Source: Tolypothrix carrinoi HA7290-LM1 (GTDB lineage: Bacteria > Cyanobacteriota > Cyanobacteriia > Cyanobacteriales > Nostocaceae). From it: DNA of 64,000 nucleotides. The stretch lies in contig JAHHIK010000001.1 of assembly GCA_019358935.1 (NCBI GenBank), forward strand, positions 1-64,000, read 5' to 3'. Shown here piece by piece: positions 18,532-39,477 of the stretch (within the stretch, counting starts at the first letter, position 1; each line of letters opens with the position of its first letter). The notes beneath the pieces are model-generated. The model worked only from the letters and a program-made list of their open reading frames with translations, was not told the origin of the DNA and made no database searches. The position numbers and the translations under genes are program-made.

Positions 18532-20091
18532 TTAAGTCTGATGCCGATACTTGATATTTGATACCCTCATACCATCTACCTTAATTTCTCGCACGCACTC
18601 CGAGAGTAACCGTTTCTTATCGGTGTATGAGTCAATCGAATCCCAAAACTCAGGGTTTGCAAATGCTTTAATAATGCGATCGCGTGAAATTGTCCATTCA
18701 GTCTGAATGTTAGCCAAGCTAGCTATTTTCAGCAAGATGTCTTCTTTGATTTGAGCGATCGCTTTCTCAATACTGATATTTTTACCGGGTATCCGCTCCA
18801 ATTGGGCTAGTTGTTGCTTAAGAGTAATTAACTCTAATGGTTCTTCCACTTTAACGACACCAATACCAATTATACTTAGGCGTTCTGCTTCCACAGTAAG
18901 CATCTTGATAACCTGCTTTTCCAGTTCGACGCTGGAAATCATGGTTTTATTAGCACAAGTACCATTATTACGGTAGTACAAACACTGAAAATAACTGATA
19001 TTCTTTTGAGATTTTTTTAAATATTGAGTACCATTGATAGTCATTTTTGAACCGCAATGAGCGCAATAAACTAGTCCAGAAAATATCTTGCTCTCTGCCG
19101 TATCATCGGTTGCCCAGCGATTGTGTTTATTTTTAGCTAAAATACTTAGTATCTTGTCACGTTGCTCAATACTAATTATTCCTTCATGGGTTCCCCAATG
19201 AATATTTAGCTCATGACGCGGTTTACTGTACTTTTTACCAGGTGCGGTCTTGTCAATCACCGTACCCCCAGCAATTACCGGATTTGTTAACCAAGCTGAC
19301 AAGCCAGAACTACTCAAAAATAATCCATTGGATGTGGCACTACCAGTCTTTGACCATAACCTGCTATTAATATCGTCCTCTTCGTTAACTATATTTACTC
19401 GGTCTGGTTGAGCATTTCTTGGTTGAATTCTCCACACCCCAAACAAACCATTCATCTTTTTGGTAGCCGAACGAATAGAGCCACATTCAAAAAACGCCTC
19501 AACCCTCATCTTTGCTACATCAACCGCAGTTAATTCCCTCAAATCATCCAACAAACAAACTAGAGGAGTTGTATCAAATTCGTAATGGTCGTAGTTGTCA
19601 CCACCAACTTTAAAGCCAAATGGCGGTCTGTAGCTGGGTTTTTTGTTCTTCTTTCTTGTCTCCAAATCTTTACGCACTCGCAACGATAACATTTTTACTT
19701 CGTGCTTGGCAATTAAAACCCGCACATCTGCTGAAAACTCTCCTCCCACCGAATCTAAATCAATCGCATCATCTAAAGCTTCAAGTTTAATTTTCTTTGC
19801 CTTGCAAACTTCGACTAGCTGATAAAATAGCACAATAGAAGCGGATATGCGATCGAGCCGAGTAAATATTAATGTCTGTATTTGTCCTGGGTTACTGGAT
19901 TCAATGTATTTTATTAACTGATTTATTCCTTTGCGCTTATCATTGGTACGCTTGCCAACGTCGTAAAAAATCTTGTTTGCCCCAACAGCGCGTAAACGCA
20001 TCAACTGTTTTTCTAGTGCGCGGTTATCAATAGCCTGCTCTTCACTACTAACCCTACCGTATCCCAATTTCATAAGTTCCCAGAAAATCAT
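18532..20091 (-). CDS. Large serine recombinase (XisF-like excisase); start may be 20073
   Basis: GYGRVSS catalytic Ser motif, TRLDR, zinc ribbon FSGLVYCAHCG...C...C and coiled coil; abuts the nifH 3' fragment. Confidence 0.92.
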   Translation of the reverse strand: MIFWELMKLGYGRVSSEEQAIDNRALEKQLMRLRAVGANKIFYDVGKRTNDKRKGINQLIKYIESSNPGQIQTLIFTRLDRISASIVLFYQLVEVCKAKKIKLEALDDAIDLDSVGGEFSADVRVLIAKHEVKMLSLRVRKDLETRKKNKKPSYRPPFGFKVGGDNYDHYEFDTTPLVCLLDDLRELTAVDVAKMRVEAFFECGSIRSATKKMNGLFGVWRIQPRNAQPDRVNIVNEEDDINSRLWSKTGSATSNGLFLSSSGLSAWLTNPVIAGGTVIDKTAPGKKYSKPRHELNIHWGTHEGIISIEQRDKILSILAKNKHNRWATDDTAESKIFSGLVYCAHCGSKMTINGTQYLKKSQKNISYFQCLYYRNNGTCANKTMISSVELEKQVIKMLTVEAERLSIIGIGVVKVEEPLELITLKQQLAQLERIPGKNISIEKAIAQIKEDILLKIASLANIQTEWTISRDRIIKAFANPEFWDSIDSYTDKKRLLSECVREIKVDGMRVSNIKYRHQT

Positions 20092-20112
20092 CCTGTTGTG
20101 ATTAAGAGTAGC

Positions 20113-20238
20113 ACCATTCCTACTCCAATTGAAATGGACGAACTAGAAGCATTGTTGATCGAATTCGGTATTCTCGAAAGCGACGAAGAAGCAGAAAAGC
20201 TGATTGCCGCAGAAAACGCTGCTAAAGCAACTGCATAA
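20113..20238 (+). CDS. nifH: Nitrogenase iron protein, 3' fragment (41 codons)
   Basis: Manual translation TIPTPIEMDELEALLIEFGILESDEEAEKL...ATA* matches the NifH C-terminus; lies directly upstream of nifD. Confidence 0.93.
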   Translation, partial: TIPTPIEMDELEALLIEFGILESDEEAEKLIAAENAAKATA

Positions 20239-20361
20239 TTACCCAGCAAAAGGAAAAAGGAAAGAATCTCATCTCTGACCTTTTCCCTTTCGTTTCCCCC
20301 AACCCCAGAGGGGACGACAAGTCCCCTATTACCAGATCCTAAAGAGCAACTGAGGCAGAAT

Positions 20362-21727
20362 ATGACACCTCCAGAAAACAACAACAACATCGTCGAAGAA
20401 AGAAAAGAACTAATTAAAGAAGTTCTCGATGCTTACCCCGACAAAGCCAAGAAAAAACGGGAAAAGCACTTAAACGTATTTGAAGAAGGCAAAGCTGACT
20501 GCGGCGTTAAGTCTAACATCAAATCTCTTCCTGGTGTAATGACCGCTCGTGGTTGTGCTTATGCAGGTTCTAAGGGTGTGGTCTGGGGTCCAATCAAAGA
20601 CATGATCCACATCAGCCACGGTCCTGTGGGTTGTGGTTACTGGTCTTGGTCTGGTCGTCGTAACTACTATATCGGCACCACTGGTGTAGACACCTTTGGT
20701 ACGATGCACTTCACCTCCGACTTCCAAGAAAGAGATATCGTTTTCGGTGGTGACAAAAAACTCGTCAAGCTAATCCAAGAACTTGACGAACTCTTCCCCC
20801 TCAACCGTGGTGTTTCCATTCAATCTGAATGTCCCATCGGTCTAATTGGGGATGACATCGAAGCAGTAGCTCGGAAAACATCAAAAGAGATTGACAAGCC
20901 TGTAGTTCCTGTACGTTGCGAAGGCTTCCGGGGTGTTTCTCAGTCTTTGGGACACCACATCGCTAACGACATGGTTCGTGACTGGGTGTTCACCAGATCC
21001 GACAAAGAAAGAAAAGAAGGCAAACAGCAGTTTGAGGGTACTCCCTACGATGTAGCCATTATTGGTGACTATAACATCGGTGGTGATGCTTGGGCTAGCC
21101 GCATCCTTCTAGAAGAAATCGGCTTGCGCGTAGTTGCTCAGTGGTCGGGTGATGGCACCATCAATGAAATGATGATGACACCGAACGTGAAGATGAATTT
21201 GATTCACTGCTACCGTTCGATGAACTACATCAGCCGTCACATGGAAGAAGCTTACGGTATTCCCTGGTTGGAATACAACTTCTTTGGTCCTACCAAGATT
21301 GCTGAATCCTTACGGGAAATCGCTTCTAAATTTGACGAGACAATCCAAGCAAACGCTGAGAAGGTAATTGCTAAATATCAGCCTACAATGGATGCGATTT
21401 TAGCAAAATATCGCCCACGTTTGGAAGGCAAGACTGTCGCCATGATGGTTGGTGGTCTGCGTCCCCGTCACGTTGTACCCGCATTCCAAGATTTGGGTAT
21501 GAGAATGATTGGTACAGGTTATGAGTTTGCTCACAACGACGATTACAAACGTACCACTCACTACATCGAAAACGGCACCATCGTTTATGACGACGTTACC
21601 GCTTATGAGTTTGAAGAGTTTGTGAAAGCACTCAAACCCGACCTCATCGCTTCTGGTGTGAAAGAGAAGTACGTTTTCCAAAAGATGGGTCTTCCTTTCC
21701 GTCAAATGCACTCTTGGGATTACTCCG
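20362..21727 (+). CDS. nifD: Nitrogenase MoFe protein alpha chain, 5' part
   Basis: RGCAYAG, HGPVGC, HCYRS and [10 protein letters not shown] motifs; similarity ends at GGATTACTCCG. Confidence 0.98.
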
Positions 21728-22044
21728 AGCTTGGCGATGCCTTCGGCAATGCTACGCAAACGCTCCTACAATTGGTGGTAAAGCAAGCTTTTGATTGCGA
21801 TGGAATAAAAAAGAGTCGATTTCTAGCCTAAATGTAAGTTGTACGCTCTCCTATAAAAATATCTCTTTGTAAGTTATAAGCATAGAAGTCTTATTCTGTC
21901 CAGTTTTTTCGATGAAATTAAATCTGCGTTGGCGAGAAACTGTAAATTAAAAAACTTTTTTTAATGATGTTTTATTAGACTAAATATATATATAGCGTGG
22001 GAGTGCGATCGCCTTCTACATTGCCCCAAGACAAATCTATAAAA

Positions 22045-25000
22045 TTAGCTCTTGATTTGTTGTAGTTGTTTGATTGTTTCTATTAACAAACGAACTTGAA
22101 CAGGTTTGTTACGAAACCAGTCTGTTGACCAAATCCGGTGAATTTTCCAACCTAGCCTTTCAAGCACCTGTTGTCTGAGGCGATCGCGATCTCTTGCAGT
22201 AGGTGAACTATGGTAAGATGCACCATCACACTCAATCCCTAGTAAAAACTCACCAGGGTGATTATTATTGACTACACCAAGGTCAATCCGATATCCTGAA
22301 CATCCAACTTGGGTGCGGATAGTGTATCCCTGCTTGACTAAGGCATGATAAACATCTTCTTCAAATGGCGAGTCAAAGTGAAGTGCATCTGTGTAGGAGT
22401 TGCCTTGCAGTCGTTCTCCACCACTCGCTGCATATTCCAGGTAATCACGCAATAATCTTACACCTTTGCTTTGGGCGCGTGTTATATCGATGTCACCAGC
22501 CTGTATGGAAGAAACTAGTGTAATTTTGCTTTTTGCCCGCGTGACAGCTACATTCAGCCGTCGTTCTCCACCTTGGCGATTTAAAGGACCAAAGTTGAGA
22601 GAAAGCTTGCCTTGATCGTCACGAGCATAGCCTACACTGAGTATAATTGCATCTCGCTCGTCACCTTGAACGTTTTCCAGCGCTTTGAGAAAAAACTGCG
22701 GTGAGTTATCGCTGCAAAATGTCTCCACATTGGGATATTCTTTTGCCAAAATCTGAATTTGCTCCTGAATAGCATCGGCTTGAGCCTCGCTAAAAGCAAT
22801 TATACCAAGGGATTGTTCGGGAAACCGTTGAAAATGCTCCAACGCCAACACAGCAACGACTTGAGCCTCGCGTCGATTATCTCTGCGTTTACCGCGATCG
22901 TAAACGCCATCAGGAACATGCTTAAACCATACTCCCAAATCTGGATTTTGAACTGGGTTTGGAAATGTAATTAACTTAGAGTCGTAAAAATGACGGTTGG
23001 AGAAAGCAATCAAACGCTCATCTTGACTGCGGTAATGCCATTTCAGCGTGCTGACAAACATAAAATTTGAACATTCATCCAAAACGCTTTCATAGCTTGC
23101 ATCATCTTCATCATCGATATCTTCTTCACTGTCTCCGGTTGAAAAGAATGATGTGGGAGGAAGTTGCTTATTGTCGCCTATTACAATAACTTGATTAGAA
23201 CGGATAATCGAAGGAACAACATCTTCAGTGCGAAGCTGAGAAGCTTCATCGAAAATGAGAACATCAAAATGAACTACATCCGGATTAATATATTGACTAA
23301 CAGAAAGTGGACTCATCATCCAGCAGGGCTTTAAGGCTTTGACGAGATTTGGTATTCCTTTTTGTGTGTCGCTGAGGAGTTTACGGATAGGCAAATGTTG
23401 TCTTTTCTTAGTCGCTTCTCTTTTCAACTTTGGCAACTCAGCTTGAGCGACTGAAGTCTTTTCCCAGTTTTGCCAGCGTTGCACATGAAATTGTTTTAAA
23501 CGTTCTCTGGCAGCATCTAATTGATTATAATCGAGTTGAGAAAACTCCTTGATTTGTCGTTCGTGTACATCAACGTTAAAATTCTTTAACTCAGGTTTTT
23601 TAGCCAGAATAGCATCAAGGCATATTTGATAAATTCGCTTTTCTAGAACTGGAAACCACTGTTTTGGTTCAATTTGGTTGTCAAGCAAAGTATCCAAGAA
23701 CTTATTAGTTCCGAGGTTTTCGAGTTTCTGGTAAGTTTCTTTATAGGTCAGCCATTCTTGGAAATAAGGCAGTTCAGATTGAGCCAAGTTTAGAAAGCTT
23801 TCTAGTTCGACAAAACTAATTTGGTTACGAGGTAAGTAAGAATCTGTGATATCACTTTCATCAAAGTGCAATAACAGAAACTCTAGCCCTTGCCTGATTT
23901 TGTTATGAGTCAATTCAAGTTTCTTAACTAATTCAGCCAAATTGCGCCGCTCAGAGGGAGAATTTATAATATGCTGAACCCAATCAGCACCAAGCGAATA
24001 CTTTTGTAAGCCAGTCAACCAACTCAAAGCTTGTTCAATTGTTCTTAACTCTGCTTCACTAGAAACTTCCGGGTTAAATAAAGATCCAAAAACCTGACGA
24101 GGCTGGTAGTCAATATGACGTAGCCTATTTCGTACAGACTCAATAGGATTAGGTTTATTGTCGCGCAAAGCATCTAAGAAATCTTGGACTCCTAAACTTT
24201 CTAGTTGTCCATAGATTTCTTTGTATGTCAACCATTTACGAAAGTCGGGTAAGTTGGATTGAGCTATGTTTAAAAAAGTTGCCAGTTCGGTAAATAAAAT
24301 TTGATTGTGAGGCAGATATTGCCCAATAATATCATTTTCATTAAAGTATAAAAGTAAAAAATCGATTCCCTGCTTAATATCTTCAGAAAGGCATTCAACT
24401 TTCTTAACTGATTCAGCTAGTTCCCGTCGCTTGGAGGGAGAATCAATAATGCGCTGCACCCAATCAGCACCAAGCGAATACTGTTGTAAGCCAGTCAACC
24501 AACTCAAAGCTTGTTCAATTGTTCTTAACTCTGCTTCACTAGAAACTTCTGGGTTAAATAAAGATCCAAAAACCTGACGCGCTGGGTAATTGCTTTGATA
24601 TAGCTCGTTTCGCGCAGCTTGTATTTGAACGGCTTGTGCCAAATCACGTTTTAATTCGTTGTGGGAAATCTGCCCCTTTTTAGTGCTTAGTTTCTTCAAA
24701 AGCTTGACATCACGTCTGTATCTGGGATTAAAAACTCTAATCAACCAAAAGCGACTATATTTTTGATATCTATTAGCTAGAGCAGGTAATTCTGATGAGA
24801 ATAATTCTGGATGATATTTTTGTTTTAAAAGCGGCTCAGTTTCTTCCAGTAATTTCACATCTGTTTTCAACTTAGTGAAAGCGTCCTGAGCAGTTGAAAT
24901 ATCCGCTACAGTCCAATTATCGGGTAAATTATCTGGAGCTTTTAATATATGTTGAAGAGCAGGATAGAAAGCTTCTACAGTCTCCAAATTCAATAAAGGC

Positions 25001-26970
25001 TGAATTTGGAGAATCATTTGAAGCTGTTGGCTAGCTGTCTGAATCAAAGAAATCGCTTGTTGGAATTTCTCAATTTTGTTATTTATTTCTAATTCCAGCG
25101 TCTGGGAGCAAGACTTTAAATTACTTTGTGACCAAATAGTTGTTTTTTCTCCTTTTAAAAATGGTAGAAAGGAAGAAAGTTGACTCAGTAAATTTTGCGC
25201 TGATTGCGAAAGCTGATTTTTTTCAATCTCTTGAACATCTGCTTTCAACTTTGTGAAGGCATTTTGAGCAGTTGATATATCTACTCCAGTCCAGTTTTCT
25301 GGCTGATTGGATGGAGCTTTTAGTATGTAGGCTAGGGCTGAATAACAAGTCTCTAGAGACTCTAGATTCAATAAAGTTTGAACTTGTATCCCTGATAATT
25401 CTTGATTAATCTTTTGGCTTGAAAAAAATGCTTGCTGAAACTCTTCTATTTTCTCCCTTATTTCTAATTCCATCTCATAAGAATAAGAATCTAGAGAACT
25501 TTTTGCCCAAATAGTTGTTTTCTCTCCCTTAAAGAAAGACAAAAAGTTTGCTAATTGATTTAATAAATCTTTTGCTTCTTGTAATCTGCTTGGATTCCAT
25601 TGGCTGAAGTTAGAAAATATAACATTAATGTTGGGAACTCCTTCGCGTTCTTTTCTCAAAAGCTCGCCAAATATCTCGAATGGTGATTTATCTAGAGGCT
25701 TCTCTTTAGCGTGTAAACTTGTGAGATATGAATTTAGCGATTGACGAGTAGAAACTAGCCGCTCAAAGAAAATATGGTGATTTGGGACACTAGATATTTG
25801 TGAAAGATAATCAATGGTTTTCGATAAATTATTTACAAGTACCCGTTTATCTGTTGTACCACTGTGGTGGAGATTGAGACATATGTGGTCTAAACTACAT
25901 TCAGCCATGCGCTTATATACAACACTTAATGCAGTCTCTTTTTCTGCAACTAATAAAACTGATTTACCATTGCCAACCAGTTCAGCAATCATATTAACAA
26001 TAGTTTGACTTTTGCCTGTTCCGGGTGGACCTTGAACAACAAAGCTAGAACCAGCCTTCGCTGCTTCAATTACTACTTGCTGGCTGGAGTCAGCATCAAG
26101 AATTTGAAATATTCGTTCAGGTTTAACTTGTGAATCTAGAGCAGATGCGGGTAGCGGTTCTCTATAATTAGATTGATAAGTAGTTAAATCACCACTAATT
26201 GCTTGCAAAATTGGGTGGTCAAAAATTCGAGCTTCATTTTCGATAATGTCCCGAACCATTGCAGCCTTTGCATAGGAAAATAGGGAGAGAAATACATTTT
26301 CTTTAATTTGCCATGTCTGTTGTTGTGCTAATAGTTGCCTAATCTCAGCAATAATTTCCTTATAAGTTAGTGTTTGTATAGCTTCTCCCTCTGGAAGCTC
26401 AGTCCCAAAGGTTTGTTTTAACTTTTGTGCCAAAGTTGGATTTAATACAACATCTTCCTCTAAGACAGATATTTTATAAACATCTCGTCTAGGTTCTTTA
26501 ATTAACTCTACAGTAACCAAAATTAGTGGCGAGAGCAAGGCATCGTCTGGCTTATCCTTGTCGTACCAAGTCAAGGTTCCAAGCGCCAGAAACAAACTGT
26601 TTACCCCTCGTTCTTCAAATGATCGTCGTGCCTCAAGGCGCAATTTATTCAGCCGTTTCAGTTGCTCGTTGCCTATTTGACGAGTTATTAATTCAAGAGG
26701 ATTTATTTGTGCTGGTAATGCTTTAGTTTTTCTCGACTGAATAATATCTTGATGTTCGCTATTAACGATTTTAAAATGAAGCGATTTTTTTTCTTCTGTC
26801 AGGTTTTTGAAGAGAACATCTAGTTCCTCTGTGAGAATTTCTAATATTCGAGGACTATCTTGGCGAAACTTGATGAGAGGATTTCGTCGTCCCAAGTCAG
26901 CGAGTCCAGCTTTCCACTTTGCGATTTTTTGAGCAAGGTTTTGTTGAGAGCCTGAAGCTGACTGTCGCAT
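22045..26970 (-). CDS. DUF4011 + SF1 (UPF1-like) helicase + C-terminal Vsr/PD-(D/E)xK-like nuclease (Hhe-like defence protein)
   Basis: LADLGRRNPLI N-terminus; QGPPGTGKSQT; FDEASQ; VQGDERD; RRLNVAVTRAK; FDSPFEEDV...IECDGASYH...LGW. Confidence 0.85.
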   Translation of the reverse strand: MRQSASGSQQNLAQKIAKWKAGLADLGRRNPLIKFRQDSPRILEILTEELDVLFKNLTEEKKSLHFKIVNSEHQDIIQSRKTKALPAQINPLELITRQIGNEQLKRLNKLRLEARRSFEERGVNSLFLALGTLTWYDKDKPDDALLSPLILVTVELIKEPRRDVYKISVLEEDVVLNPTLAQKLKQTFGTELPEGEAIQTLTYKEIIAEIRQLLAQQQTWQIKENVFLSLFSYAKAAMVRDIIENEARIFDHPILQAISGDLTTYQSNYREPLPASALDSQVKPERIFQILDADSSQQVVIEAAKAGSSFVVQGPPGTGKSQTIVNMIAELVGNGKSVLLVAEKETALSVVYKRMAECSLDHICLNLHHSGTTDKRVLVNNLSKTIDYLSQISSVPNHHIFFERLVSTRQSLNSYLTSLHAKEKPLDKSPFEIFGELLRKEREGVPNINVIFSNFSQWNPSRLQEAKDLLNQLANFLSFFKGEKTTIWAKSSLDSYSYEMELEIREKIEEFQQAFFSSQKINQELSGIQVQTLLNLESLETCYSALAYILKAPSNQPENWTGVDISTAQNAFTKLKADVQEIEKNQLSQSAQNLLSQLSSFLPFLKGEKTTIWSQSNLKSCSQTLELEINNKIEKFQQAISLIQTASQQLQMILQIQPLLNLETVEAFYPALQHILKAPDNLPDNWTVADISTAQDAFTKLKTDVKLLEETEPLLKQKYHPELFSSELPALANRYQKYSRFWLIRVFNPRYRRDVKLLKKLSTKKGQISHNELKRDLAQAVQIQAARNELYQSNYPARQVFGSLFNPEVSSEAELRTIEQALSWLTGLQQYSLGADWVQRIIDSPSKRRELAESVKKVECLSEDIKQGIDFLLLYFNENDIIGQYLPHNQILFTELATFLNIAQSNLPDFRKWLTYKEIYGQLESLGVQDFLDALRDNKPNPIESVRNRLRHIDYQPRQVFGSLFNPEVSSEAELRTIEQALSWLTGLQKYSLGADWVQHIINSPSERRNLAELVKKLELTHNKIRQGLEFLLLHFDESDITDSYLPRNQISFVELESFLNLAQSELPYFQEWLTYKETYQKLENLGTNKFLDTLLDNQIEPKQWFPVLEKRIYQICLDAILAKKPELKNFNVDVHERQIKEFSQLDYNQLDAARERLKQFHVQRWQNWEKTSVAQAELPKLKREATKKRQHLPIRKLLSDTQKGIPNLVKALKPCWMMSPLSVSQYINPDVVHFDVLIFDEASQLRTEDVVPSIIRSNQVIVIGDNKQLPPTSFFSTGDSEEDIDDEDDASYESVLDECSNFMFVSTLKWHYRSQDERLIAFSNRHFYDSKLITFPNPVQNPDLGVWFKHVPDGVYDRGKRRDNRREAQVVAVLALEHFQRFPEQSLGIIAFSEAQADAIQEQIQILAKEYPNVETFCSDNSPQFFLKALENVQGDERDAIILSVGYARDDQGKLSLNFGPLNRQGGERRLNVAVTRAKSKITLVSSIQAGDIDITRAQSKGVRLLRDYLEYAASGGERLQGNSYTDALHFDSPFEEDVYHALVKQGYTIRTQVGCSGYRIDLGVVNNNHPGEFLLGIECDGASYHSSPTARDRDRLRQQVLERLGWKIHRIWSTDWFRNKPVQVRLLIETIKQLQQIKS

Positions 26971-31874: not shown

Positions 31875-32303
31875 ATGGCTCGTAGAAAAAGAACCTCCAT
31901 AGTCTTAGAAAAAGCAGTGCGTCGTGCGGCTGGCATAAACTCAATTGATCCGAATTTAAATTTAGGCAATGGACTCACCTTACCTGCCTTCTCAACCCTA
32001 ATCGAGACGATGCGAACTAGAGAAAATGCATATAACAGTGCCCTTTCCAGCTTGGATAAATTGTACCGTGAAATGCTCCAAACAGAAAGCGAGTTGGCAG
32101 ATATGACAGAACACATGCTAATGGCAGTTGCGACTCGATATGGCAAAAGCAGTGTAGAGTACGGCATGGCAGGAGGAGTTCCTAAAAATCAGCGCCGCAA
32201 GGGACTGCGAGGCGAGACTCCCATCGCAAGTTCACAGCAACCGTCATTAGTTGCCAGTGCGGACGGCAACGGCAATGGAAACAAAGCAACAGCGACAACT
32301 TAG
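31875..32303 (+). CDS. Hypothetical small helical protein
   Basis: 142-aa ORF MARRKRTSIVLEKA...SIDPNLNLGNGLTL...YGKSSVEYGMAGG. Confidence 0.75.
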   Translation: MARRKRTSIVLEKAVRRAAGINSIDPNLNLGNGLTLPAFSTLIETMRTRENAYNSALSSLDKLYREMLQTESELADMTEHMLMAVATRYGKSSVEYGMAGGVPKNQRRKGLRGETPIASSQQPSLVASADGNGNGNKATATT

Positions 32304-32400
32304 TAGGGTGCGTTGTCGCTCGCGCAACGCACCACACCACACCACACCACACCACATCAATCATGGGCATCCTAAATACAACTACCATCCCCTCACACCC

Positions 32401-32952
32401 ATGCCCAACTACCGCAGACCCCATATTGCCGGTGGTACTTACTTCATTACCCAAGTTACCTACCAACGACAACCCTGGCTTTGCTCCAATATCGGACGCA
32501 CTGCTCTACGCGCTGCCCTTGTGCATGTCCGACAGAATTACCCTTTCTCGATTGATGCCTTTGTTCTACTGCCCGATCACTTTCACACCCTATGGACTCT
32601 ACCTGAAGGAGATAGTAATTTCTCGATGCGAATGCTTTTAATCAAACGCTTTGTGACCAAATACTACGGGCATCAACTAGGACTTAATGTCGCTATCTCC
32701 CGTTCGCGGGAAAAGCGAAAAGAAAGAAACTTATGGCAACGCCGTTTCTGGGAGCATCTGATTCGAGATGATGTTGATTTTGCTAATCATTGCGATTACA
32801 TTCACTATAATCCTGTGCGGCATAAACTTTGTGAATCACCGCAGCAATGGACTTTTTCAAGTATTCATCGTTTTATTCAGCAGGAAATTTACCCGTTAGA
32901 TTGGGGTGGGGGTGGTGGGGTTGAGCTGCCGTCGGATATTTGGGATGTTTGA
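32401..32952 (+). CDS. REP-associated tyrosine transposase (RAYT, Y1 HUH)
   Basis: MPNYRR..GGTYFIT, LPDHFHTLW (HUH), WQRRFWEHLIRD and YIHYNPVRH motifs; flanked by inverted REPs. Confidence 0.92.
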   Translation: MPNYRRPHIAGGTYFITQVTYQRQPWLCSNIGRTALRAALVHVRQNYPFSIDAFVLLPDHFHTLWTLPEGDSNFSMRMLLIKRFVTKYYGHQLGLNVAISRSREKRKERNLWQRRFWEHLIRDDVDFANHCDYIHYNPVRHKLCESPQQWTFSSIHRFIQQEIYPLDWGGGGGVELPSDIWDV

Positions 32953-33124
32953 GATTGTGGTGCGTTGCGAAGAGCGACAACACACCCTACATTAGGGATG
33001 CGATCGCACAATTACAAAGCTGATAATAGAGGATAACCCAGTTATCATAAATTAATAATGAGTTTGATTTATCTTTCAAAAATTATGCAAAATAATTACA
33101 TTTTTATTTATAGGAGAATTTTTA

Positions 33125-33658
33125 ATGATTGAAGTCAAAGTTTACGTAGGAAAAGATTACGATTTTAGATTTTATGATGGTCGTGGTGATCGCGATGACT
33201 ACTATTGCTTTGATGCTCTCATTTTAGAGCCTGTTAAAATTTCTGGAAAAGACAATCCGATTGCTTATCCAGGCAAGAAACATACCTTTGACTTTGACCA
33301 CTACAATTGTCTTAATACCGATTCAAACATAAAGCAAGTTGTTCGAGATGTACTGTTCCCTAAATATCTTGGAGGTTCAAAGGCAAATTGTATATTGCTT
33401 ATAGAAGTTAAAGAACTTAAGGGGTACGACCTCTTACAAGCAATCAAAAGTGTACAATATATGGATGATGCTCCAATTACTAAAATTGAGCCATTTGTTG
33501 TAAAGAAGCGTAAAGATAAACAATATAATGATTCAAATATACAGATCTACAGCCGTCATTCTTCTGTTTCTAGGATTGGTATGACAGACGTACAAAAAAT
33601 GGAACTGGCTGAAGATATTTACGGCATTCCCGACCCACGCTTACTGTCCGAAGATTGA
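33125..33658 (+). CDS. Hypothetical protein
   Basis: AT-rich 177-aa ORF with upstream AGGAG; no family recognised. Confidence 0.65.
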   Translation: MIEVKVYVGKDYDFRFYDGRGDRDDYYCFDALILEPVKISGKDNPIAYPGKKHTFDFDHYNCLNTDSNIKQVVRDVLFPKYLGGSKANCILLIEVKELKGYDLLQAIKSVQYMDDAPITKIEPFVVKKRKDKQYNDSNIQIYSRHSSVSRIGMTDVQKMELAEDIYGIPDPRLLSED

Positions 33659-34076
33659 ACACTTATCTGTTAAGAAAATACATTTAATTGCCTAGTAAAC
33701 AGAAGAAGTAGGGTGTGTTGTCGCTCTTCGCAACGCACCACATCAATTTTATTAGCAAATTCAACTCAGCTTATAAACCAATTCCATCTTCAACTTATCA
33801 ATCTCAAGCTGCTTAAGTATTTGGTTTGTGAGTTTCTATTGCCATACATTTTTAATGTAGATTTCTATCGAAAATAGCTATTCCTAATCTTCGTATTTCG
33901 AGCCATCAATACGGCTGAAGAAAGCGGGTGTTGTGGGTGACAAGAGTAAGGTCATTGAAGAAGGCGATCGCAGCAATTAACAAATCATTGGATATTTGGG
34001 ATGTTTGAGATCGTGGTGCGTTGCGAAGAGCGACAACACACCCTACTCTAGGGATGCGATCGCGCTAAAACAGTCC

Positions 34077-34356
34077 TTATTTATAAACATCTCCTCTCAT
34101 GCCAATGGTGTAAATTTCAATTTCACCCGAATCAATATTAACTGTAAAGATAATTCTGGTTTTACCAATACGCAGTCTATAAAATCCTTCCCAATCTCCC
34201 TTCATTTTTTTAATGTCAAGGTCTGTGAAGGGAATAATCCCCTGTTATTCAACAACAATCAGGAGTTGGTTGAGTTGAAGAATGAATTTTAGCAGTATCT
34301 TCAATATTTGCCTTTTCTAAAAACTTAATCGCATTTTTACGGAATTTGATTGCCAT
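34077..34356 (-). pseudogene. RelE/ParE toxin, frameshifted
   Basis: MAIKFRKNAIKFL start and KKMKGDWEGFYRLRIGKTRIIF...RGDVYK end are in different frames (280 nt). Confidence 0.75.
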
Positions 34357-34546
34357 ATCTGACCCACTCTGTCATATCAACTGATTCCTCTTCTTCATAG
34401 TCTGATGGTGAACCAAAGATTTCATTCAGTTCTGCTTGTTCTTCATCACTCACATAGGGTATAAGAACTTGACACAACATTCGCTCTTCTCGCAAAACTT
34501 CCCGTATGCTCTCTTTAATTAATGCTTTAAGTTCATGAATTTCCAT
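34337..34546 (-). CDS. Putative antitoxin
   Basis: Small acidic ORF overlapping the start of the RelE/ParE gene. Confidence 0.65.
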   Translation of the reverse strand: MEIHELKALIKESIREVLREERMLCQVLIPYVSDEEQAELNEIFGSPSDYEEEESVDMTEWVRYGNQIP

Positions 34547-34619
34547 TAGTCTTTTTCTTGAGAATACAAAAAATATACTATTTACAAGCTGCTCCTATTT
34601 AAAGCATATATCAAAAATC

Positions 34620-34715
34620 CTGATGCGATTAATAATTGCCGCTATAATTTCCACACTAGTTATTGCTGATATAACGCTTGACTAATGCGCTACTGTCTAG
34701 AAAATAAACTGCCAT
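34620..34715 (-). pseudogene. VapC/PIN toxin remnant
   Basis: MAVYFLDSSALVKRYI followed by an early stop. Confidence 0.7.
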
Positions 34716-34979
34716 CTAACTGCGTTCCTCAATGATAGTTTCAGAAACAGGCTTTCCCTCAACATAAATTAGTCGTCGCTCAGTAATTGGATCGTAAGAA
34801 GTATGCTTGATCTGTTTTACTAAGCCAGAAGAAATCAGAGCTTGGTGAAATTTTGCTTGCTTCACAGTTTCTTCTTTATCAGCAAGATACTTTTTAATTG
34901 TCTGGTTAAGCTGCTGAAGCTCTTCTAATTCAAGTGTTTCAAGCTGCTTAAGTATTTGGTTTAGGGTTTCTAATGCCAT
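34716..34979 (-). CDS. Putative antitoxin partner of the PIN toxin
   Basis: C-terminal GKPVSETIIEER motif; abuts the PIN remnant. Confidence 0.65.
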   Translation of the reverse strand: MALETLNQILKQLETLELEELQQLNQTIKKYLADKEETVKQAKFHQALISSGLVKQIKHTSYDPITERRLIYVEGKPVSETIIEERS

Positions 34980-35053
34980 ACTTTTTAAATGATAATTTAT
35001 TATCGACAAATCATAGCATATCAGATAAAATTGGTATTATTTATTTAGCAAAG

Positions 35054-36472
35054 TTAACTTCGCTTATAAACCAACTCTATTTTCAACTTCTCAATCTCCA
35101 ACTTCAACTTTTCATTCTCCATCCTCAACTTAGCATTCTCCTCCCTCATCAACTCAACTTCATCCCTCTTACTCAAAGCTTGATTAATCGCCAACTTCCG
35201 CATATCTAGCGAGAACCAACGCTGATAAGTTTGAGTGTGAACTTGCACGCTATGTCCTAAATTATCTGCTGCTGCTTTAATTGGTATTCCCAAAATATGC
35301 GCCCTAATTGCCCATGCATGACGTAAATCATACGGCTTAAAATCTAATCCGATTTTCCGAAACCACCAACTAACTCGTTGTGTTAATGCCGTTATCTCTG
35401 CGTGATTACTTTTATCTTTTTTACTAACTGTTGTTGCCAGCATTTCTAAATATTTAGGATTTCTTAAATCAAAGTCTGCAATCCATTCTTTATGTAACGG
35501 TAACGCTTGTCTTTCCCCAGTTTTACACTCTTTATGTACCTTCCATGTCATGTCTGCATTTTCTTGACTTAACCACCATTCGATGTCAGGATTAATAAAA
35601 AGCTCTCGCGGACGTAAACCAAAAGTTGCTAACATTCCATAAGTCCATCGCCAAAGTTGCCAACTATCTTTCACATCTGGATTAACTTGATTACCTCTGT
35701 TATTCAGATAATTTGCAAACTTGATAATTCCGGCGGATATTTCCACATCGCTGGGTATATTCCGGGAATTATTTTCAGGCATTTTAGAATATTTAGATAA
35801 ATCTATTTCGATTTTGAATGTTATGCAAAACGCCGATATAGCCCTCATGGCATTATATCTAGCCCATTCTTTATCGATTTTATCAATTGAATTTATCAGA
35901 TTTTCCGAAGTTGCCAAATCTTTAGCATTAGTGAATCGCTTGGTTCGAGAAAAGTAATAAAAAAAAGTATGTTCGCTTTTTGTCGTGCGTTTATGAGTTT
36001 TGAAATACTCCTCTTCAAATTGTTCGAGTAACTCTCCTATTGTTTTAAGGTCTTTTTTATTTGCCTCATTACCTAAATATTTATCATTCCATTCAAAGGT
36101 ATGCCTTGCAATTAACTTTCCTAATTCATAAGATTCTTCCTCAGCCGTTTTTAATCCATCCAAGTTAGCGGGAATATTTAAGCTAATATTATATTGTTTT
36201 CTTCCAGTGCCGTTTGTGTCTTTATCTCCCGGTTTAATTGGTAACGTCGCTCGTAATTGCAGACTTCCATTAGACTCCCTAATTGTAACCTTTGCCTTTG
36301 CAGACTTCAAACGTTGATTAACTTTTTCTAACTCTAATAGTACTTTTGTTCTCATATACTCTCTTTGCTGCTGTGCTTGCTGACTTGAGCCAAGAAAACT
36401 GCCGTCGGTAGATGAAACTGGCTGCAAGTCTGCAAAAGCTTGTTGATATTTGTCAAAATCCTGGTTATGCAT
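35054..36472 (-). CDS. xisA: nifD element excisase, tyrosine recombinase
   Basis: 472 aa; DKYQQAFADL..SSTDGSFLGSS N-terminus; GLRPRE, YDLRHAWAIR and LGHS...HTQTY catalytic motifs. Confidence 0.97.
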   Translation of the reverse strand: MHNQDFDKYQQAFADLQPVSSTDGSFLGSSQQAQQQREYMRTKVLLELEKVNQRLKSAKAKVTIRESNGSLQLRATLPIKPGDKDTNGTGRKQYNISLNIPANLDGLKTAEEESYELGKLIARHTFEWNDKYLGNEANKKDLKTIGELLEQFEEEYFKTHKRTTKSEHTFFYYFSRTKRFTNAKDLATSENLINSIDKIDKEWARYNAMRAISAFCITFKIEIDLSKYSKMPENNSRNIPSDVEISAGIIKFANYLNNRGNQVNPDVKDSWQLWRWTYGMLATFGLRPRELFINPDIEWWLSQENADMTWKVHKECKTGERQALPLHKEWIADFDLRNPKYLEMLATTVSKKDKSNHAEITALTQRVSWWFRKIGLDFKPYDLRHAWAIRAHILGIPIKAAADNLGHSVQVHTQTYQRWFSLDMRKLAINQALSKRDEVELMREENAKLRMENEKLKLEIEKLKIELVYKRS

Positions 36473-36511
36473 TGCGGTATTTTTAGCCTATATTTAGCCT
36501 AAAAATAAATG

Positions 36512-36558
36512 TGTAATCAGCGAACAATGTTTAAAACTGACACTGCTTGCTGTAAACA
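36512..36558. promoter_or_regulatory. Three tandem TG(T/C)-N9-ACA boxes upstream of xisA (candidate NtcA sites)
   Basis: Boxes at 36512-36526, 36528-36542 and 36544-36558 with 16-bp period. NtcA is known to bind TGT-N9/10-ACA sites upstream of xisA in Anabaena. Confidence 0.65.
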
Positions 36559-36601
36559 TTAGGCTATTTTCAGCTATTAAATCATAAAAAGGATTACTCC
36601 G

Positions 36602-36741
36602 GTCCTTATCACGGTTATGATGGCTTCGCTATCTTCGCTCGCGACATGGATCTAGCACTGAACAGCCCAACCTGGGGATTAATCGGCGCTCCCTGGAACA
36701 AAAAAGCAGAAGCTAAAACAGAAGCTAAGGCGATCGCCTAA
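36602..36741 (+). CDS. nifD: Nitrogenase MoFe protein alpha chain, 3' part
   Basis: Manual translation [32 protein letters not shown]...KAIA*. Confidence 0.97.
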
Positions 36742-36967
36742 AAAAATCGCAAACAAAGGGATAGCCTGGGGCTAAAACCCCAGGAGAAAGTTGGGAATAC
36801 AAAATTCGTCGAGGATGCGCTTTGATCGGAGGAAACCTCCGCTCAAACTTTCCGCAAAATTCAAAATTCAAAGTTCTGAATTTTGCATTCTGAGTTTTGA
36901 ATCATATTCCCGCTTTCCATCCCTCCCTTGCCACACGTAACGACTACAGCAGCTTGGAGAACTAGAA

Positions 36968-38248
36968 ATGCCTCAGAATCCGGAAAATATTCAAGATCAC
37001 GTCGAACTATTCCACCAACCGGAATACCAACAGTTATTTGAAAACAAAAAGCAATTTGAAAACGGACACAGCCCCGAAGAAGTTGCCCGTGTTGCAGAAT
37101 GGACGAAGGGTTGGGAGTATCGTGAAAAGAACTTCGCCCGTGAAGCATTGACCGTCAACCCCGCTAAAGGTTGCCAACCATTGGGTGCAATCTTCGCTGC
37201 TGTTGGTTTTGAAGGCACTCTACCTTTTGTCCAAGGTTCTCAAGGTTGCGTAGCTTACTTCCGCACCCACTTAACCCGTCACTACAAAGAACCGTTTTCT
37301 GGCGTATCTTCTTCGATGACAGAAGACGCAGCGGTGTTTGGTGGACTGCAAAACATGATTGATGGGTTGGCAAACTCCTACCAACTCTACAAGCCAAAGA
37401 TGATTGCTGTCTGCACCACCTGTATGGCAGAAGTTATCGGTGATGACTTGCAAGCTTTCATCAACAACTCCAAGAATGCAGGTTCAGTTCCTCAAGATTT
37501 CCCAGTACCCTACGCTCACACTCCTAGCTTTGTTGGTTCCCACATCACTGGTTATGATAACATGATGAAGGGTATTCTTTCTAACTTGACCGCAGGTCAT
37601 AAGAAAGAAACCAGCAATGGCAAAATCAACTTTATTCCTGGCTTTGATACCTACGTTGGTAACAACCGGGAAATCAAGCGGATGTGTGAATTGATGGGCA
37701 TCGATTACACAATCTTGGCAGATAACAGCGATTATCTGGATTCACCCAACACAGGTGAATTTGATATGTACCCAGGTGGTACTCCGTTGGAAGATGCAGC
37801 AGATTCGATTAATGGTAAAGCCACAATCGCTCTGCAAGCACACTCTACCATCAAAACCCGCGAGTACATCGAAAAAGAATGGAAGCAACCAACTGTTGTT
37901 TCTCGTCCTTGGGGTATCAAGGGTACTGATGAGTTCTTGATGAAACTCAGCGAACTGACTGGTAAACCCATTCCCAAAGAACTAGAAATCGAACGCGGTC
38001 GCGCAGTTGATGCGATGACTGACTCCCATTCATGGCTGCACGGCAAGCGCTTCGCTATGTATGGCGATCCCGATCTAGTTTACAGCGTAGTCGGCTTCAT
38101 GCTAGAAATGGGTGCTGAACCCGTGCATATCCTTGTCCACAACAGCAATGAAAACTTTGAGAAAGAACTCAAAGAGTTGCTAGCTTCTAGCCCCAATGGT
38201 AAGAGTGCTACTCTGTGGGCTGGTAAAGATTTGTGGCACATGCGTTCT
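36968..38248 (+). CDS. nifK: Nitrogenase MoFe protein beta chain, 5' part (427 codons), interrupted
   Basis: NPAKGCQPLG, GSQGCVAYFR and TTCMAEVIGDD motifs. Similarity stops after GKDLWHMRS; the C-terminal ~85 aa are absent from the window. Confidence 0.96.
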
Positions 38249-38268
38249 AAGATGTGTTTGCTATCAGG

Positions 38269-39477
38269 TTAATTAAATAATGTAGTAGTGTGAACATATC
38301 GCAGAATTTCATCCACCGCTCGCTTTGCTCCTCCAGCAGCACGACAAGCGTCACCCAGACGATCGCTGTTTGCGACAAAAGAGCGATCGCCTAGAATTTG
38401 CTGCGCTGTCTTTTGCAAACGTTCCGCTGTCACATCTTCTGGTAAAATCATAATTCCCGCACCCTGCTCCTCAATGCGGTGTGAAATAATCTCCTGCTCA
38501 TAAGTTTGGGGAACTGCAATCATCGGCACCGAGTACCAGACAGCCTCCCGCGCTCCCCCTCCCGCACCGTGCATAATAAACAAACTAGCACGCTCTAATA
38601 TCTTTAGTTGGGGAACAGTACCCGTAGGTCGAATTATAAAGTTTTCTGGGATATCTCCCAAAAGCGCAGCATCCATTCCCGGACTCAACAGCATTATCAC
38701 CTGAGCATCAATGCTGCCAAAAGCCTGAATGCAGCTTTGATAAAATGCCAAACCTGGATCGTGAATGTTGCCAAATGAAATCAGGATTACCTTATCTTTT
38801 TGTAATTGCTCCATTGGAAAATCATATTCCATCGCCCGCACCGGATTGCACGGACCGACAAAATGAAACCGCTCATCGAATTTATCGCTATAAGGCTGAA
38901 GTTCTGGCGGTAAATAACAAATATTTAGAGGTTCGATATTAGTAAATGTATCAATAAATTTAATCGGGGACAAGCCGTAAGTTTCTCGTAGCTCTCGTTG
39001 ATGTTGACGATAGTGCTTCATGCTGCCTGCTGCCTCCTTTAACAATCGGGGAAGTTTCTTTCTTAGTCTGGGACATTCATAGAAACTTTCTGGAGTGAAA
39101 GCAGCGGTAGCGATGGAATTGACAGCGGGAATATTCAGCAACTGCGCTACTAATCTTCCCCAAAGACACAGCGAGTCGTGAATGATGTAATCTGGCTTTT
39201 CCTCACGGACTGATTCTAAAAGTGCCGGCAGCATCTTAAGAGCGCACCAAGTTAACGAGGGTACTAGAGACATTTCGTTTTCCGCTGGTGGTGCTGTCTG
39301 AGGATTTAGCGGAGGATAACAACGAAAAGAAGCTCCAAACGTCTCGATTTCTTTCTGAAAACGGTCAACTTCGTAGTAAATTACCTCTTCACCTCTTTTA
39401 ATTAGCTCTGCCATTAATCCAAAAGTGGGGATGATGTGTCCGGCAGCGGAAACGTTCATGAATATAATACGACTCAT
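38269..39477 (-). CDS. MGT-family (GT1) glycosyltransferase, HasQ-like
   Basis: AAGHIIPT, ISFGN, VPQLKILERASLFIMHG and VPMIAVPQTYEQ motifs. Confidence 0.88.
   Translation of the reverse strand: MSRIIFMNVSAAGHIIPTFGLMAELIKRGEEVIYYEVDRFQKEIETFGASFRCYPPLNPQTAPPAENEMSLVPSLTWCALKMLPALLESVREEKPDYIIHDSLCLWGRLVAQLLNIPAVNSIATAAFTPESFYECPRLRKKLPRLLKEAAGSMKHYRQHQRELRETYGLSPIKFIDTFTNIEPLNICYLPPELQPYSDKFDERFHFVGPCNPVRAMEYDFPMEQLQKDKVILISFGNIHDPGLAFYQSCIQAFGSIDAQVIMLLSPGMDAALLGDIPENFIIRPTGTVPQLKILERASLFIMHGAGGGAREAVWYSVPMIAVPQTYEQEIISHRIEEQGAGIMILPEDVTAERLQKTAQQILGDRSFVANSDRLGDACRAAGGAKRAVDEILRYVHTTTLFN

What the first reader, a model, noticed from the sequence alone, without database searches (positions are those of the whole stretch)
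18532..38272. nifH, nifD and nifK are each split, so three excisions are needed to build one nitrogenase operon
Seen: a nifH 3' stub next to a serine recombinase, a complete xisA element in nifD, and a broken nifK. At least two recombinase classes (serine and tyrosine) are involved, and about 60 of the 64 kb would be element DNA. Elements in each gene are individually known, but all three in one operon makes nitrogen fixation depend on three rearrangements (inference). The nifH stub and nifD 3' part are absent from the ORF track and would be missed by routine annotation.
Basis: partly seen in the sequence, partly recalled or inferred. Interest (0 to 1): 0.78.

Follow-up and report, generated by a model that had tools for sequence, protein, structure and literature searches.

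The report
Three excision elements split nifHDK
In this Tolypothrix-like cyanobacterium each of the three nitrogenase structural genes is broken by a DNA element that carries its own recombinase and must be cut out to rebuild the gene, an arrangement already documented in several related cyanobacteria.

Summary
nifH, nifD and nifK are each split once.

- **nifH:** the 3' stub lies at 20112-20238, beside a 519-aa XisF-family serine recombinase. The 5' part is on contig C40.
- **nifD:** a classical 14,874-bp XisA element lies between GGATTACTCCG repeats at 21717 and 36591.
- **nifK:** a 61,075-bp element bounded by GTTCT (38244 and C1:99319) carries a second XisF-family recombinase and an intact NRPS cluster.

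All three in-silico joins are in frame (298, 501 and 511 aa). No other nifD or nifK was found in the genome. nifB, fdxN, nifS, nifU, nifE, nifN, nifX and hupL are unbroken.

The arrangement is not new. Table B of Hilton et al. 2016 lists at least four genomes with nifH, nifD and nifK all interrupted. Uesaka et al. 2024 showed nine recombination events restoring nifBHDK in Calothrix NIES-4101. This scan also noted a triple nifHDK split (e1-2469045) and a XisF-type nifH element (e1-3768938) on other DNA.

Two points are modestly new. The nifH site (nt 771-781, recombinase at the 3' end) is absent from the published catalogue and was seen in 3 of 121 sampled genomes. The nifK element carries a whole NRPS pathway. 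Excision itself was not observed.

The parts
1..20111 (.). Right-hand 20.1 kb of the nifH interruption element. It continues across a contig gap to C40:1-1358. Cargo: assorted metabolic, transporter, regulator and toxin-antitoxin genes.
   Evidence: The border is defined by the repeat at 20112. Both ends are syntenic with the contiguous 21,867-bp element of sister genome G025.
18532..20091 (-). XisF-family large serine recombinase of the nifH element (519 aa; a second ATG 18 nt downstream is an alternative start).
   Evidence: Pfam Resolvase, Recombinase and Zn_ribbon_recom. NCBIfam NF041201 XisF 523.6 bits against a cut-off of 375. YGRVSSEEQ motif seen in the translation.
20112..20122 (+). 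11-bp direct repeat CACCATTCCTA (nifH nt 771-781). The second copy is at C40:1359-1369 on the minus strand.
   Evidence: The same junction sequences occur in G025 and G058.
20112..20238 (+). nifH 3' part (42 codons plus stop).
   Evidence: tblastn of an intact NifH paralogue matches residues 257-286 at the same place in G025 and 257-280 in G058.
20362..21727 (+). nifD 5' part (455 codons).
   Evidence: TIGR01282 809.7 bits, profile positions 1-434 of 466. Pfam PF00148.
21717..36590 (.). 14,874-bp nifD interruption element, counted from the first repeat copy to the base before the second.
   Evidence: GGATTACTCCG at 21717 and 36591. The join gives a 501-aa NifD.
35054..36472 (-). xisA, tyrosine recombinase (472 aa). 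Its start codon lies 118 bp inside the right border.
   Evidence: 96% identical to a protein named XisA in Tolypothrix sp. NIES-4075. 83-84% identical to proteins named excisionase A / Excisase A of Nostoc sp. PCC 7120. Weak Phage_integrase hit.
36591..36741 (+). nifD 3' part, including the second repeat copy.
36968..38248 (+). nifK 5' part, up to and including GTTCT at nt 1277-1281.
   Evidence: TIGR01286 747.4 bits, profile positions 1-429 of 516. Junction.
38244..64000 (.). Left 25.8 kb of the 61,075-bp nifK interruption element. It runs on to C1:99318. Its 517-aa XisF-family recombinase is at C1:97723-99276(-), outside the window.
   Evidence: GTTCT at 38244 and C1:99319; the join gives a 511-aa NifK. 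Cargo and recombinase Pfam hits. NF041201 516.5 bits.

Best explanation
These are three independent developmentally excised interruption elements of a heterocyst-forming cyanobacterium. On the vegetative-cell chromosome the cluster reads nifB-fdxN-nifS-nifU-nifH'-[element of at least 21.5 kb]-'nifH-nifD'-[14.9 kb]-'nifD-nifK'-[61.1 kb]-'nifK-nifE-nifN-nifX. Each element carries, at its promoter-distal end and antisense to nif, one site-specific recombinase that recombines the short direct repeats at the element's borders. The element is released as a circle and the reading frame is restored. XisA (tyrosine class) acts on GGATTACTCCG in nifD. Two XisF-family large serine recombinases, only 39% identical to each other, act in nifH and nifK. 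Their likely two-base crossovers are CA at nifH nt 771-772 and TC within GTTCT in nifK. Shown here: the anatomy, the in-frame joins, the recombinase families, conservation of the junctions in other genomes, and the lack of any other nifDK. Inferred from the published behaviour of the same families: that excision happens, and that it happens during heterocyst differentiation. The crossover positions are inferred from the dyad symmetry of the reconstructed circle junctions.
For: - Joins at the repeats give uninterrupted NifH (298 aa), NifD (501 aa) and NifK (511 aa).
- PF00148 finds no further nifD or nifK in the genome. The nine matches are the nifD 5' part, the nifK 5' and 3' parts, nifE, nifN, chlB, chlN and a nifE/N-like pair on C35.
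- nifB, fdxN, nifS and nifU on C40 are intact. nifE, nifN and nifX are intact. hupL is in one frame.
- Recombinases: XisA is 83-84% identical to PCC 7120 excisase A. Both serine recombinases exceed the XisF equivalog cut-off.
- The nifK recombinase is 74-88% identical to recombinases that sit beside a nifK 3' part in 7 other genomes.
- The nifK break at profile position 431-435 is seen in 23 of 121 sampled family genomes, G000 included. Two more are probable: G083 and G111.
- The nifH junction sequences are the same in G000, G025 (recombinase 99% identical) and G058 (78%).
- In G025 the two nifH parts lie on one contig, in the same orientation, 21,867 bp apart.
- The reconstructed attP of the nifH element is symmetric in 11 of 14 positions around CA in G000 and G025, and in 9 of 14 in G058. 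The nifK attP has perfect 9-bp inverted repeats equidistant from TC.
- Literature: the same nifD (1353-1357) and nifK (1277, GTTC/GTTCT, serine recombinase at the element's end in minus orientation) variants appear in Table B of Hilton et al. 2016. Experimental restoration of fragmented nifBHDK is described in the abstract and sections 14 and 18 of Uesaka et al. 2024.
Against: - Excision was not observed. The only run holding this DNA is kept as assembled contigs, which show the unexcised junctions alone. Such contigs drop rare forms, so this neither supports nor refutes excision.
- The two nifH parts lie on different contigs (C40 and C1), and both contig ends stop in 127-bp multi-copy repeats. 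The size, continuity and orientation of the nifH element are therefore inferred from the sister genome, whose interior cargo differs.
- Intact nifH paralogues exist on C3 and C35.
- No xisH or xisI gene lies within the elements. All the XisH (15) and XisI (17) profile matches lie elsewhere in the genome.
Confidence: 0.85

Rival explanations
1. The nif operon is a relic. The elements are fixed insertions that no longer excise, and the organism does not fix nitrogen with this cluster.
For: No direct evidence of excision. The cargo is decaying in relatives: the sister's nifK element has lost most of the NRPS genes.
Against: All six gene pieces are free of stops and frameshifts and join in frame. 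All three recombinase ORFs are intact. The rest of the nif cluster is intact. The same junctions persist in genomes whose recombinases have diverged to 78% identity, which implies selection on the sites.
Confidence: 0.04
2. Restoring nifH needs more than one simple excision, because the unassembled gap between C40 and C1 hides an inversion, a nested element or a much larger insert, as in Calothrix sp. NIES-4101.
For: The two parts are on separate contigs whose ends are multi-copy repeats. About 10 kb of the interior differs from the sister genome. Inversion-type restorations are published.
Against: In G025 the same element is contiguous, in direct orientation, and 21,867 bp long. C40 plus C1 already account for about 21.5 kb. 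The nifH 5' part is unbroken over profile positions 1-254. An insertion sequence inside the element would not affect excision.
Confidence: 0.1
3. Only the nifD and nifK excisions are strictly required for an active enzyme, because an intact nifH paralogue can supply the Fe protein.
For: The C3 copy (298 aa, stand-alone) is 92% identical to the joined NifH and the C35 copy is 89% identical.
Against: Expression of the paralogues in heterocysts is unknown. Without nifH-element excision, nifDK stay at least 21.5 kb away from the nifB-to-nifH transcription unit. The element, its recombinase and its sites are conserved.
Confidence: 0.12
4. The split genes are an assembly artefact.
For: The genome is a draft of 184 contigs.
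Against: Contigs of the probable source run cross the junctions at 20112, 21717, 36591 and 38244 at a word depth of about 520-540 with no differences. Independent assemblies G025 and G058 and runs X2 and X3 show the same junctions.
Confidence: 0.01

Closest known systems
11-kb nifD element and XisA of Nostoc (Anabaena) sp. PCC 7120 (nifD-1353 variant in Hilton et al. 2016, Table B)
   Same: Identical 11-bp repeat GGATTACTCCG. Same site (nt 1356 here, 1353 in their numbering). xisA is antisense at the element's end. Its start lies 118 bp from the border, matching the value 118 in their table row (my reading of an unlabelled column). XisA is 83-84% identical.
   Different: Length is 14.9 kb, not 11.3 kb. 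The cargo includes a 1641-aa DUF4011 / ProA/Hhe-like helicase-nuclease and a REP-associated tyrosine transposase.
nifK-1277 interruption-element variant (Hilton et al. 2016: Calothrix desertica PCC 7102, Calothrix sp. PCC 7103, Microchaete sp. PCC 7126, Rivularia sp. PCC 7116)
   Same: Repeat GTTCT at nt 1277. Serine recombinase at the element's end in minus orientation, about 42-51 bp from the border. Length of 61 kb falls within the published 29-85 kb. The recombinase is 74-88% identical to nifK-adjacent recombinases in 7 other genomes.
   Different: The cargo is an intact NRPS pathway with four synthetases and tailoring genes. This cargo is not mentioned in the sections I read, and my one literature search turned up no report of it.
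nifH-781 interruption-element variant (Hilton et al. 2016: Calothrix desertica PCC 7102 #5, Rivularia sp. PCC 7116 #3)
   Same: A XisF-family serine recombinase element in the same few codons of nifH (the T-I-P-T-P region). It lies within the +/-10 bp that the authors use to lump variants.
   Different: The repeat here is CACCATTCCTA at 771-781, not AC(T/A)CC at 781-785. The recombinase is at the element's end in minus orientation, not at its beginning in plus orientation. The best hit from Dulcicalothrix (Calothrix) desertica in the protein search is only 34% identical.
Calothrix sp. NIES-4101 nifBHDK (Uesaka et al. 2024)
   Same: Several nif structural genes are fragmented, each break has a recombinase beside the terminal repeats, and a XisA-like enzyme acts on (G)GGATTACTCCG.
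   Different: That case is far more complex: 13 parts, 7 excisions and 2 inversions, with experimental proof. Here there are three simple splits and no experiment.
fdxN element and XisF of Nostoc sp. PCC 7120
   Same: Both serine recombinases here pass the NCBIfam XisF equivalog model.
   Different: fdxN is intact in this genome. The targets are nifH and nifK. No xisH or xisI lies in the elements.

Membership tests
Heterocyst interruption (excision) elements | Interrupts the reading frame of a gene used in heterocysts | tested here: met
   nifH, nifD and nifK are each in two pieces.
Heterocyst interruption (excision) elements | Bounded by short direct repeats, one copy of which remains in the restored gene | tested here: met
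   Repeats of 11 bp, 11 bp and 5 bp.
Heterocyst interruption (excision) elements | Encodes its own site-specific recombinase next to one border | tested here: met
   18532-20091(-), 35054-36472(-) and C1:97723-99276(-).
Heterocyst interruption (excision) elements | Precise deletion restores an intact gene | tested here: met
   In-silico joins give proteins of 298, 501 and 511 aa without stops.
Heterocyst interruption (excision) elements | Excised during heterocyst differentiation | not testable with these tools
   Only assembled contigs of the source run are available, and they show the unexcised form. No RNA run is listed.
nifD-1353/1357 XisA element | Repeat (GGAT)TACTCCG at about nt 1353-1357 of nifD, with a XisA orthologue antisense at the element's end | tested here: met
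nifK-1277 variant | GTTC(T) repeat at nt 1277, serine recombinase at the end in minus orientation, and the recombinase groups with other nifK-1277 recombinases | tested here: met
nifH-781 variant | Direct repeat AC(T/A)CC at nt 781-785 | tested here: not met
   The shared block is nt 771-781. At the left junction the bases after it are ATCAC, not CTCC.
nifH-781 variant | [quoted passage not shown] | tested here: not met
   The recombinase is at the end and antisense. The 1.36 kb of element on the C40 side holds no recombinase frame.
nifH-781 variant | Recombinase groups with those of PCC 7102 #5 and PCC 7116 #3 | tested here: inconclusive
   The only D. desertica hit listed is 34% identical, and I could not tell which element it belongs to. 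Those two genomes were not identified among the unnamed handles.
XisF (NCBIfam NF041201, equivalog) | Score above the curated cut-off of 375 bits | tested here: met
   523.6 and 516.5 bits.
XisF (NCBIfam NF041201, equivalog) | Excises an element from fdxN | tested here: not met
   fdxN (C40:5603-5938) is an intact 111-aa ORF. These enzymes sit in nifH and nifK.
Large serine recombinases | Resolvase catalytic domain with the conserved serine, plus Recombinase and zinc-ribbon domains | tested here: met
   Pfam hits. YGRVSSEEQ and YARVSTEEQ seen in the translations.

The most novel reading that the evidence does not exclude
The nifH element would be an uncatalogued seventh nifH interruption variant. 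It has its own small XisF-family clade: 5 protein clusters at 78% identity or more, then a drop to 53%. It would cross over at CA (nt 771-772), 13 bp upstream of the published 781 site, and it has the opposite recombinase layout. In addition, the 61-kb nifK element would make a complete NRPS pathway of about 50 kb cell-type specific, because heterocyst development removes it from the chromosome onto a circle. Developmental excision would then regulate a secondary-metabolite pathway as well as nitrogenase.
Probability: 0.2. Interest if true: 0.45.

Novelty: new member of a known kind. Interest (0 to 1): 0.25.

Why it matters
As it stands this is a clean, fully resolved example of a known phenomenon, not a discovery. 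It is useful for annotation: routine gene calling will report nifH, nifD and nifK as truncated or pseudogenes and could score a nitrogen fixer as non-diazotrophic. PCR surveys targeting nifH can fail on such genomes.

Two side results add something. The set of nifH target sites used by XisF-family recombinases is wider than the 2016 catalogue, and these enzymes are of interest as site-specific integrases. Interruption elements can also carry whole biosynthetic pathways, and here excision in heterocysts would remove such a pathway from the chromosome.

Tried and rejected
- **Direct evidence of excision.** The one run holding this DNA (X1, probably the source) and three runs with relatives are kept as contigs. 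No contig joins 21717 to 36591 or crosses any other border in the excised form. Contigs drop rare forms, so this says nothing either way. No RNA holder is listed.
- **NtcA-type sites.** No GTAN8TAC site within about 300 bp upstream of any of the three recombinase genes. There is one GTN10AC site upstream of the nifK recombinase, against a background of 2.9 per kb. Uninformative.
- **Promoters.** The sigma-70 consensus scan of 19950-20450 and 36400-37000 found 0 promoter-like sites. Uninformative.
- **Linking C40 to C1.** No overlap between the two ends. Each ends in a 127-bp repeat shared with other contig ends: 2 other contigs for C1, and 15 contigs at 97% identity or more for C40.
- **The nifK element's halogenase in relatives.** The WelO5-like halogenase was not found with this query in 0 of 5 relatives. 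The tool warns that an empty answer shows nothing. DNA comparison then showed that the sister's nifK element keeps only fragments of the NRPS genes.
- **Naming the NRPS product.** One literature search on hassallidin-type clusters (listing only) gave no basis for a name, so I left the cluster unnamed.
- **Earlier notes by sequence.** A look-up with the nifH recombinase found no look-alike.


Full report
**Where the window lies.** The window is the first 64 kb of contig C1 (196,607 bp) of a 7.96-Mb draft genome of 184 contigs, 99.65% complete. The only close public relative of the nifH-element recombinase is a record titled Tolypothrix sp. VBCCA 56010 (99% identity, syntenic).

**Check of the observation: nifH.**
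- ORF 18532-20091(-) is a 519-aa large serine recombinase with Resolvase, Recombinase and Zn_ribbon_recom domains.
- Twenty bases beyond its start codon, on the + strand, lies an open frame without a start codon that reads the last 42 residues of NifH.
- The rest of nifH is on contig C40 (1357-2118, minus strand), covering PF00142 positions 1-254 of 271.
- That part ends ...KLTIP and then runs into unrelated sequence.

**Check of the observation: nifD and nifK.**
- The nifD 5' part is 20362-21727 and the 3' part is 36591-36741.
- The two nifD parts are separated by 14,874 bp between two exact copies of GGATTACTCCG, the only two in the window.
- xisA is 35054-36472(-).
- nifK starts at 36968 and breaks after ...DLWHMRS at 38244.
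- The nifK 3' part was found 61 kb downstream on the same contig, at C1:99319-99578, followed by nifE, nifN and nifX.

- Joining each gene at its repeat gives uninterrupted proteins: NifH 298 aa, NifD 501 aa and NifK 511 aa.
- A profile search of the whole genome for the nitrogenase component-1 fold gives nine matches. They are the nifD 5' part, the nifK 5' and 3' parts, nifE, nifN, chlB, chlN, and a nifE-like plus truncated nifN-like pair on C35. No second nifD or nifK was found.
- nifH has two further intact paralogues. One is a stand-alone gene on C3. The other is a 321-aa copy on C35 next to the nifE/N-like pair. They are 92% and 89% identical to the joined NifH.
- Upstream on C40, nifB, fdxN, nifS and nifU are intact. 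hupL lies in one frame.
- The cluster therefore needs exactly three rearrangements.

**The recombinases.**
- ORF 35054-36472 is XisA. It is 96% identical to a protein named XisA in Tolypothrix sp. NIES-4075, and 83-84% identical to proteins named excisionase A / Excisase A of Nostoc sp. PCC 7120.
- It has no NCBIfam hit, and only a sub-threshold Phage_integrase hit in Pfam.
- Both serine recombinases exceed the NCBIfam XisF equivalog cut-off of 375 bits, at 523.6 and 516.5 bits. They are only 39% identical to each other.
- fdxN, the target of the name-giving XisF, is intact here.
- XisH and XisI homologues are present (15 XisH and 17 XisI profile matches), but all of them lie elsewhere in the genome, none in the elements.

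**The nifK element.**
- Its repeat (GTTCT), position (nt 1277), recombinase class, place and orientation all match the nifK-1277 variant in Table B of Hilton, Meeks and Zehr 2016 (PMC4874684). From that paper I read the Results, the Discussion and the supplement rows for nifK, nifH and the first 30 nifD rows.
- In my sample of 121 family genomes (G000 included), 84 have a full-length nifK.
- 23 have the best match ending at profile position 431-435, as here. Two more probably do: G083 is read through a stop, and G111 covers 85-433.
- Six are split near position 150-165. Two start near position 85 (G067; G111, already counted). Three are otherwise partial (G105 at a contig start, G002, G004).
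- Two genomes have no match.
- The recombinase is 74-88% identical to recombinases lying beside a nifK 3' part in 7 of the 23 loci I examined.
- The reconstructed circle junction has perfect 9-bp inverted repeats equidistant from the TC of GTTCT. I take TC as the likely crossover dinucleotide; this is an inference.

**The nifD element.** It is the classical variant. It has the same 11-bp repeat as Nostoc sp. PCC 7120. It sits at nt 1356 (1353 in the published numbering). xisA lies antisense 118 bp inside the right border, the same figure as in the published table rows for PCC 7120 and many others. That column is unlabelled in the extract, so this is my reading of it.

**The nifH element: site and layout.**
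- The two junctions share CACCATTCCTA, nt 771-781 of nifH.
- Table B of Hilton et al. lists six nifH variants, at 92, 143-152, 257, 405-409, 428-429 and 781.
- The 781 variant has the repeat AC(T/A)CC, which corresponds to nt 781-785 here. It therefore abuts our repeat and overlaps it by one base.
[quoted passage not shown] Here it is at the end and antisense.
- The 1.36 kb of element on the C40 side holds no recombinase frame.

**The nifH element: distribution.**
- Among 121 sampled genomes, only G000, G025 (99%) and G058 (78%) have this recombinase. The next best match is 51% and carries a stop.
- Of 23 loci around the best matches, only those two carry a nifH stub.
- In the 5.8-billion-protein search, five clusters are 78% identical or more, then identity falls to 53%. 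A Dulcicalothrix desertica protein is 34% identical.
- The junction sequences are the same in all three genomes.

**The nifH element: crossover and classification.**
- The reconstructed circle junction is symmetric in 11 of 14 positions around CA (nt 771-772) in G000 and G025, and in 9 of 14 in G058.
If that is right, the two sites are distinct.
- By the published +/-10-bp lumping rule, ours would still be filed under 781.
- I therefore call it a probable new sub-variant, not a proven one.

**Continuity of the nifH element.**
- C40 and C1 both end in 127-bp multi-copy repeats, so an insertion sequence or similar repeat lies in the gap.
- In G025 the two nifH parts are on one contig, in the same orientation, with repeats 21,867 bp apart.
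- Our two pieces add up to about 21.5 kb.
- The two ends of the element are 92-98% identical between the genomes, but about 10 kb of the interior is different.
- Simple excision is thus the likely mode here, with a small residual doubt.

**How common the triple split is.**
- Table B of Hilton et al. lists nifH, nifD and nifK elements together in Calothrix desertica PCC 7102, Calothrix sp. PCC 7103, Rivularia sp. PCC 7116 and Nostoc sp. PCC 7524.
- Uesaka et al. 2024 (PMC11249958; I read the abstract and sections 14 and 18) found two or more fragmented nif genes in 19 of 29 strains. They showed by resequencing and PCR that 13 fragments of nifBHDK in Calothrix sp. NIES-4101 are restored by seven excisions and two inversions.
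- Anabaena sp. 90 has three elements in nifH and nifD spanning 122 kb (PMC3542288, passages).
- G058 in my sample has at least five elements in nifHDK: nifH in three parts, a further insert of about 8.2 kb in nifD, and the nifK element.
- This scan has already filed a triple nifHDK split in an Anabaena genome as ordinary (e1-2469045).

**Evidence on excision itself.** There is none. The probable source run and three runs with relatives are kept as contigs. They cross all junctions in the unexcised form, and no contig shows a joined form. No RNA run is listed. That excision occurs in heterocysts is inferred from the published behaviour of the same element families.

**Cargo.**
- The nifK element holds four intact NRPS genes of 3700, 3067, 2829 and 2210 aa, with about ten adenylation domains and one thioesterase.
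- It also holds a WelO5-type halogenase, an Asp/Asn beta-hydroxylase, a JmjC-like cupin, glycosyltransferases, sugar-modifying enzymes, methyltransferases, an ABC exporter and MFS transporters.
- The sister genome's nifK element keeps the left 8 kb and only fragments of the synthetase genes. The cluster is therefore older than the split between the two strains and is decaying in one of them.
- My search found no paper that reports an NRPS pathway inside an interruption element. Hilton et al. describe the cargo only as highly variable.

**Verdict.** Interest is low to moderate. Two small additions remain: the nifH site variant and the biosynthetic cargo.

Noticed in passing
window 38269-64000, continuing to C1:99318: The 61-kb nifK element carries an apparently complete NRPS pathway. 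It has four synthetases (3700, 3067, 2829 and 2210 aa), a WelO5-type halogenase, an Asp/Asn beta-hydroxylase, a JmjC-like cupin, three glycosyltransferase-type genes, a sugar epimerase/dehydratase, methyltransferases, an ABC exporter and two MFS transporters. The sister genome G025 keeps only fragments of the synthetase genes in its nifK element.
   Followed up: partly
window 22045-26970 (-): The nifD element encodes a 1641-aa protein with DUF4011, AAA_11/AAA_12 helicase and MTES_1575 nuclease domains. It scores high against the anti-phage ProA and Hhe models but below their cut-offs (1208 against 1500 bits, and 820 against 2000 bits). It is a defence-type gene riding on the excision element.
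   Followed up: no
window 27466-28101 (-), 28637-29242 (+), 29309-29911 (+): Three paralogous ORFs of about 200 aa in the nifD element have no Pfam hit. They share motifs (...KARSE...PILLE..., ...CDF...VEAK...) reminiscent of a PD-(D/E)xK nuclease core. That resemblance is my own impression, not a test.
   Followed up: no
window 31478-31838 and 32251-32952 (+): A short tandem-repeat stretch reads as repeated SKSKGILLAENTKM-type peptides on one strand. A REP-associated tyrosine transposase lies next to it (NF047646, 179 bits against a cut-off of 80). The source run shows several-fold higher contig depth at 27.7-28.4, 31.5-32.2 and 36.6-37.3 kb, which suggests multi-copy short repeats, one of them in the nifD-nifK spacer.
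   Followed up: no
G000:C35:20448-24204 (-): A third nifH-like gene (321 aa, long acidic C-terminal tail) is followed by a nifE-like gene (449 aa) and a nifN-like gene truncated after about 244 aa. A regulator and molybdate-binding-type genes lie nearby. No matching D or K genes, and no second half of the nifN-like gene, were found in the genome. This may be the remnant of a second or alternative nitrogenase cluster.
   Followed up: partly
L047 (G058:C10:1-20000): In G058 the nifD 5' part carries a further insert of about 8.2 kb near nt 230. The segment with the ORF-30756 homologue plus xisA occurs twice in tandem. Its nifH is in three parts. That genome has at least five elements in nifHDK.
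   Followed up: partly
C1:1-127 and C40:1-127: Both contig ends inside the nifH element are 127-bp repeats. C1's is shared with 2 other contig ends, and C40's with 15 at 97% identity or more. This probably marks insertion-sequence copies that broke the assembly.
   Followed up: partly
G000:C15:98193-99263 (+): A XisA paralogue (30% identity, open frame 372 aa) lies near the end of contig C15. hupL is intact in this genome, so this is not a hupL-element XisC. Whether it has a target gene is unknown.
   Followed up: no
window 7173-7855 (-) and 10140-10418 (-): The nifH element carries toxin-antitoxin-type genes: an HTH_3 / Gp49 (DUF891) pair and a BrnA-type antitoxin.
   Followed up: no
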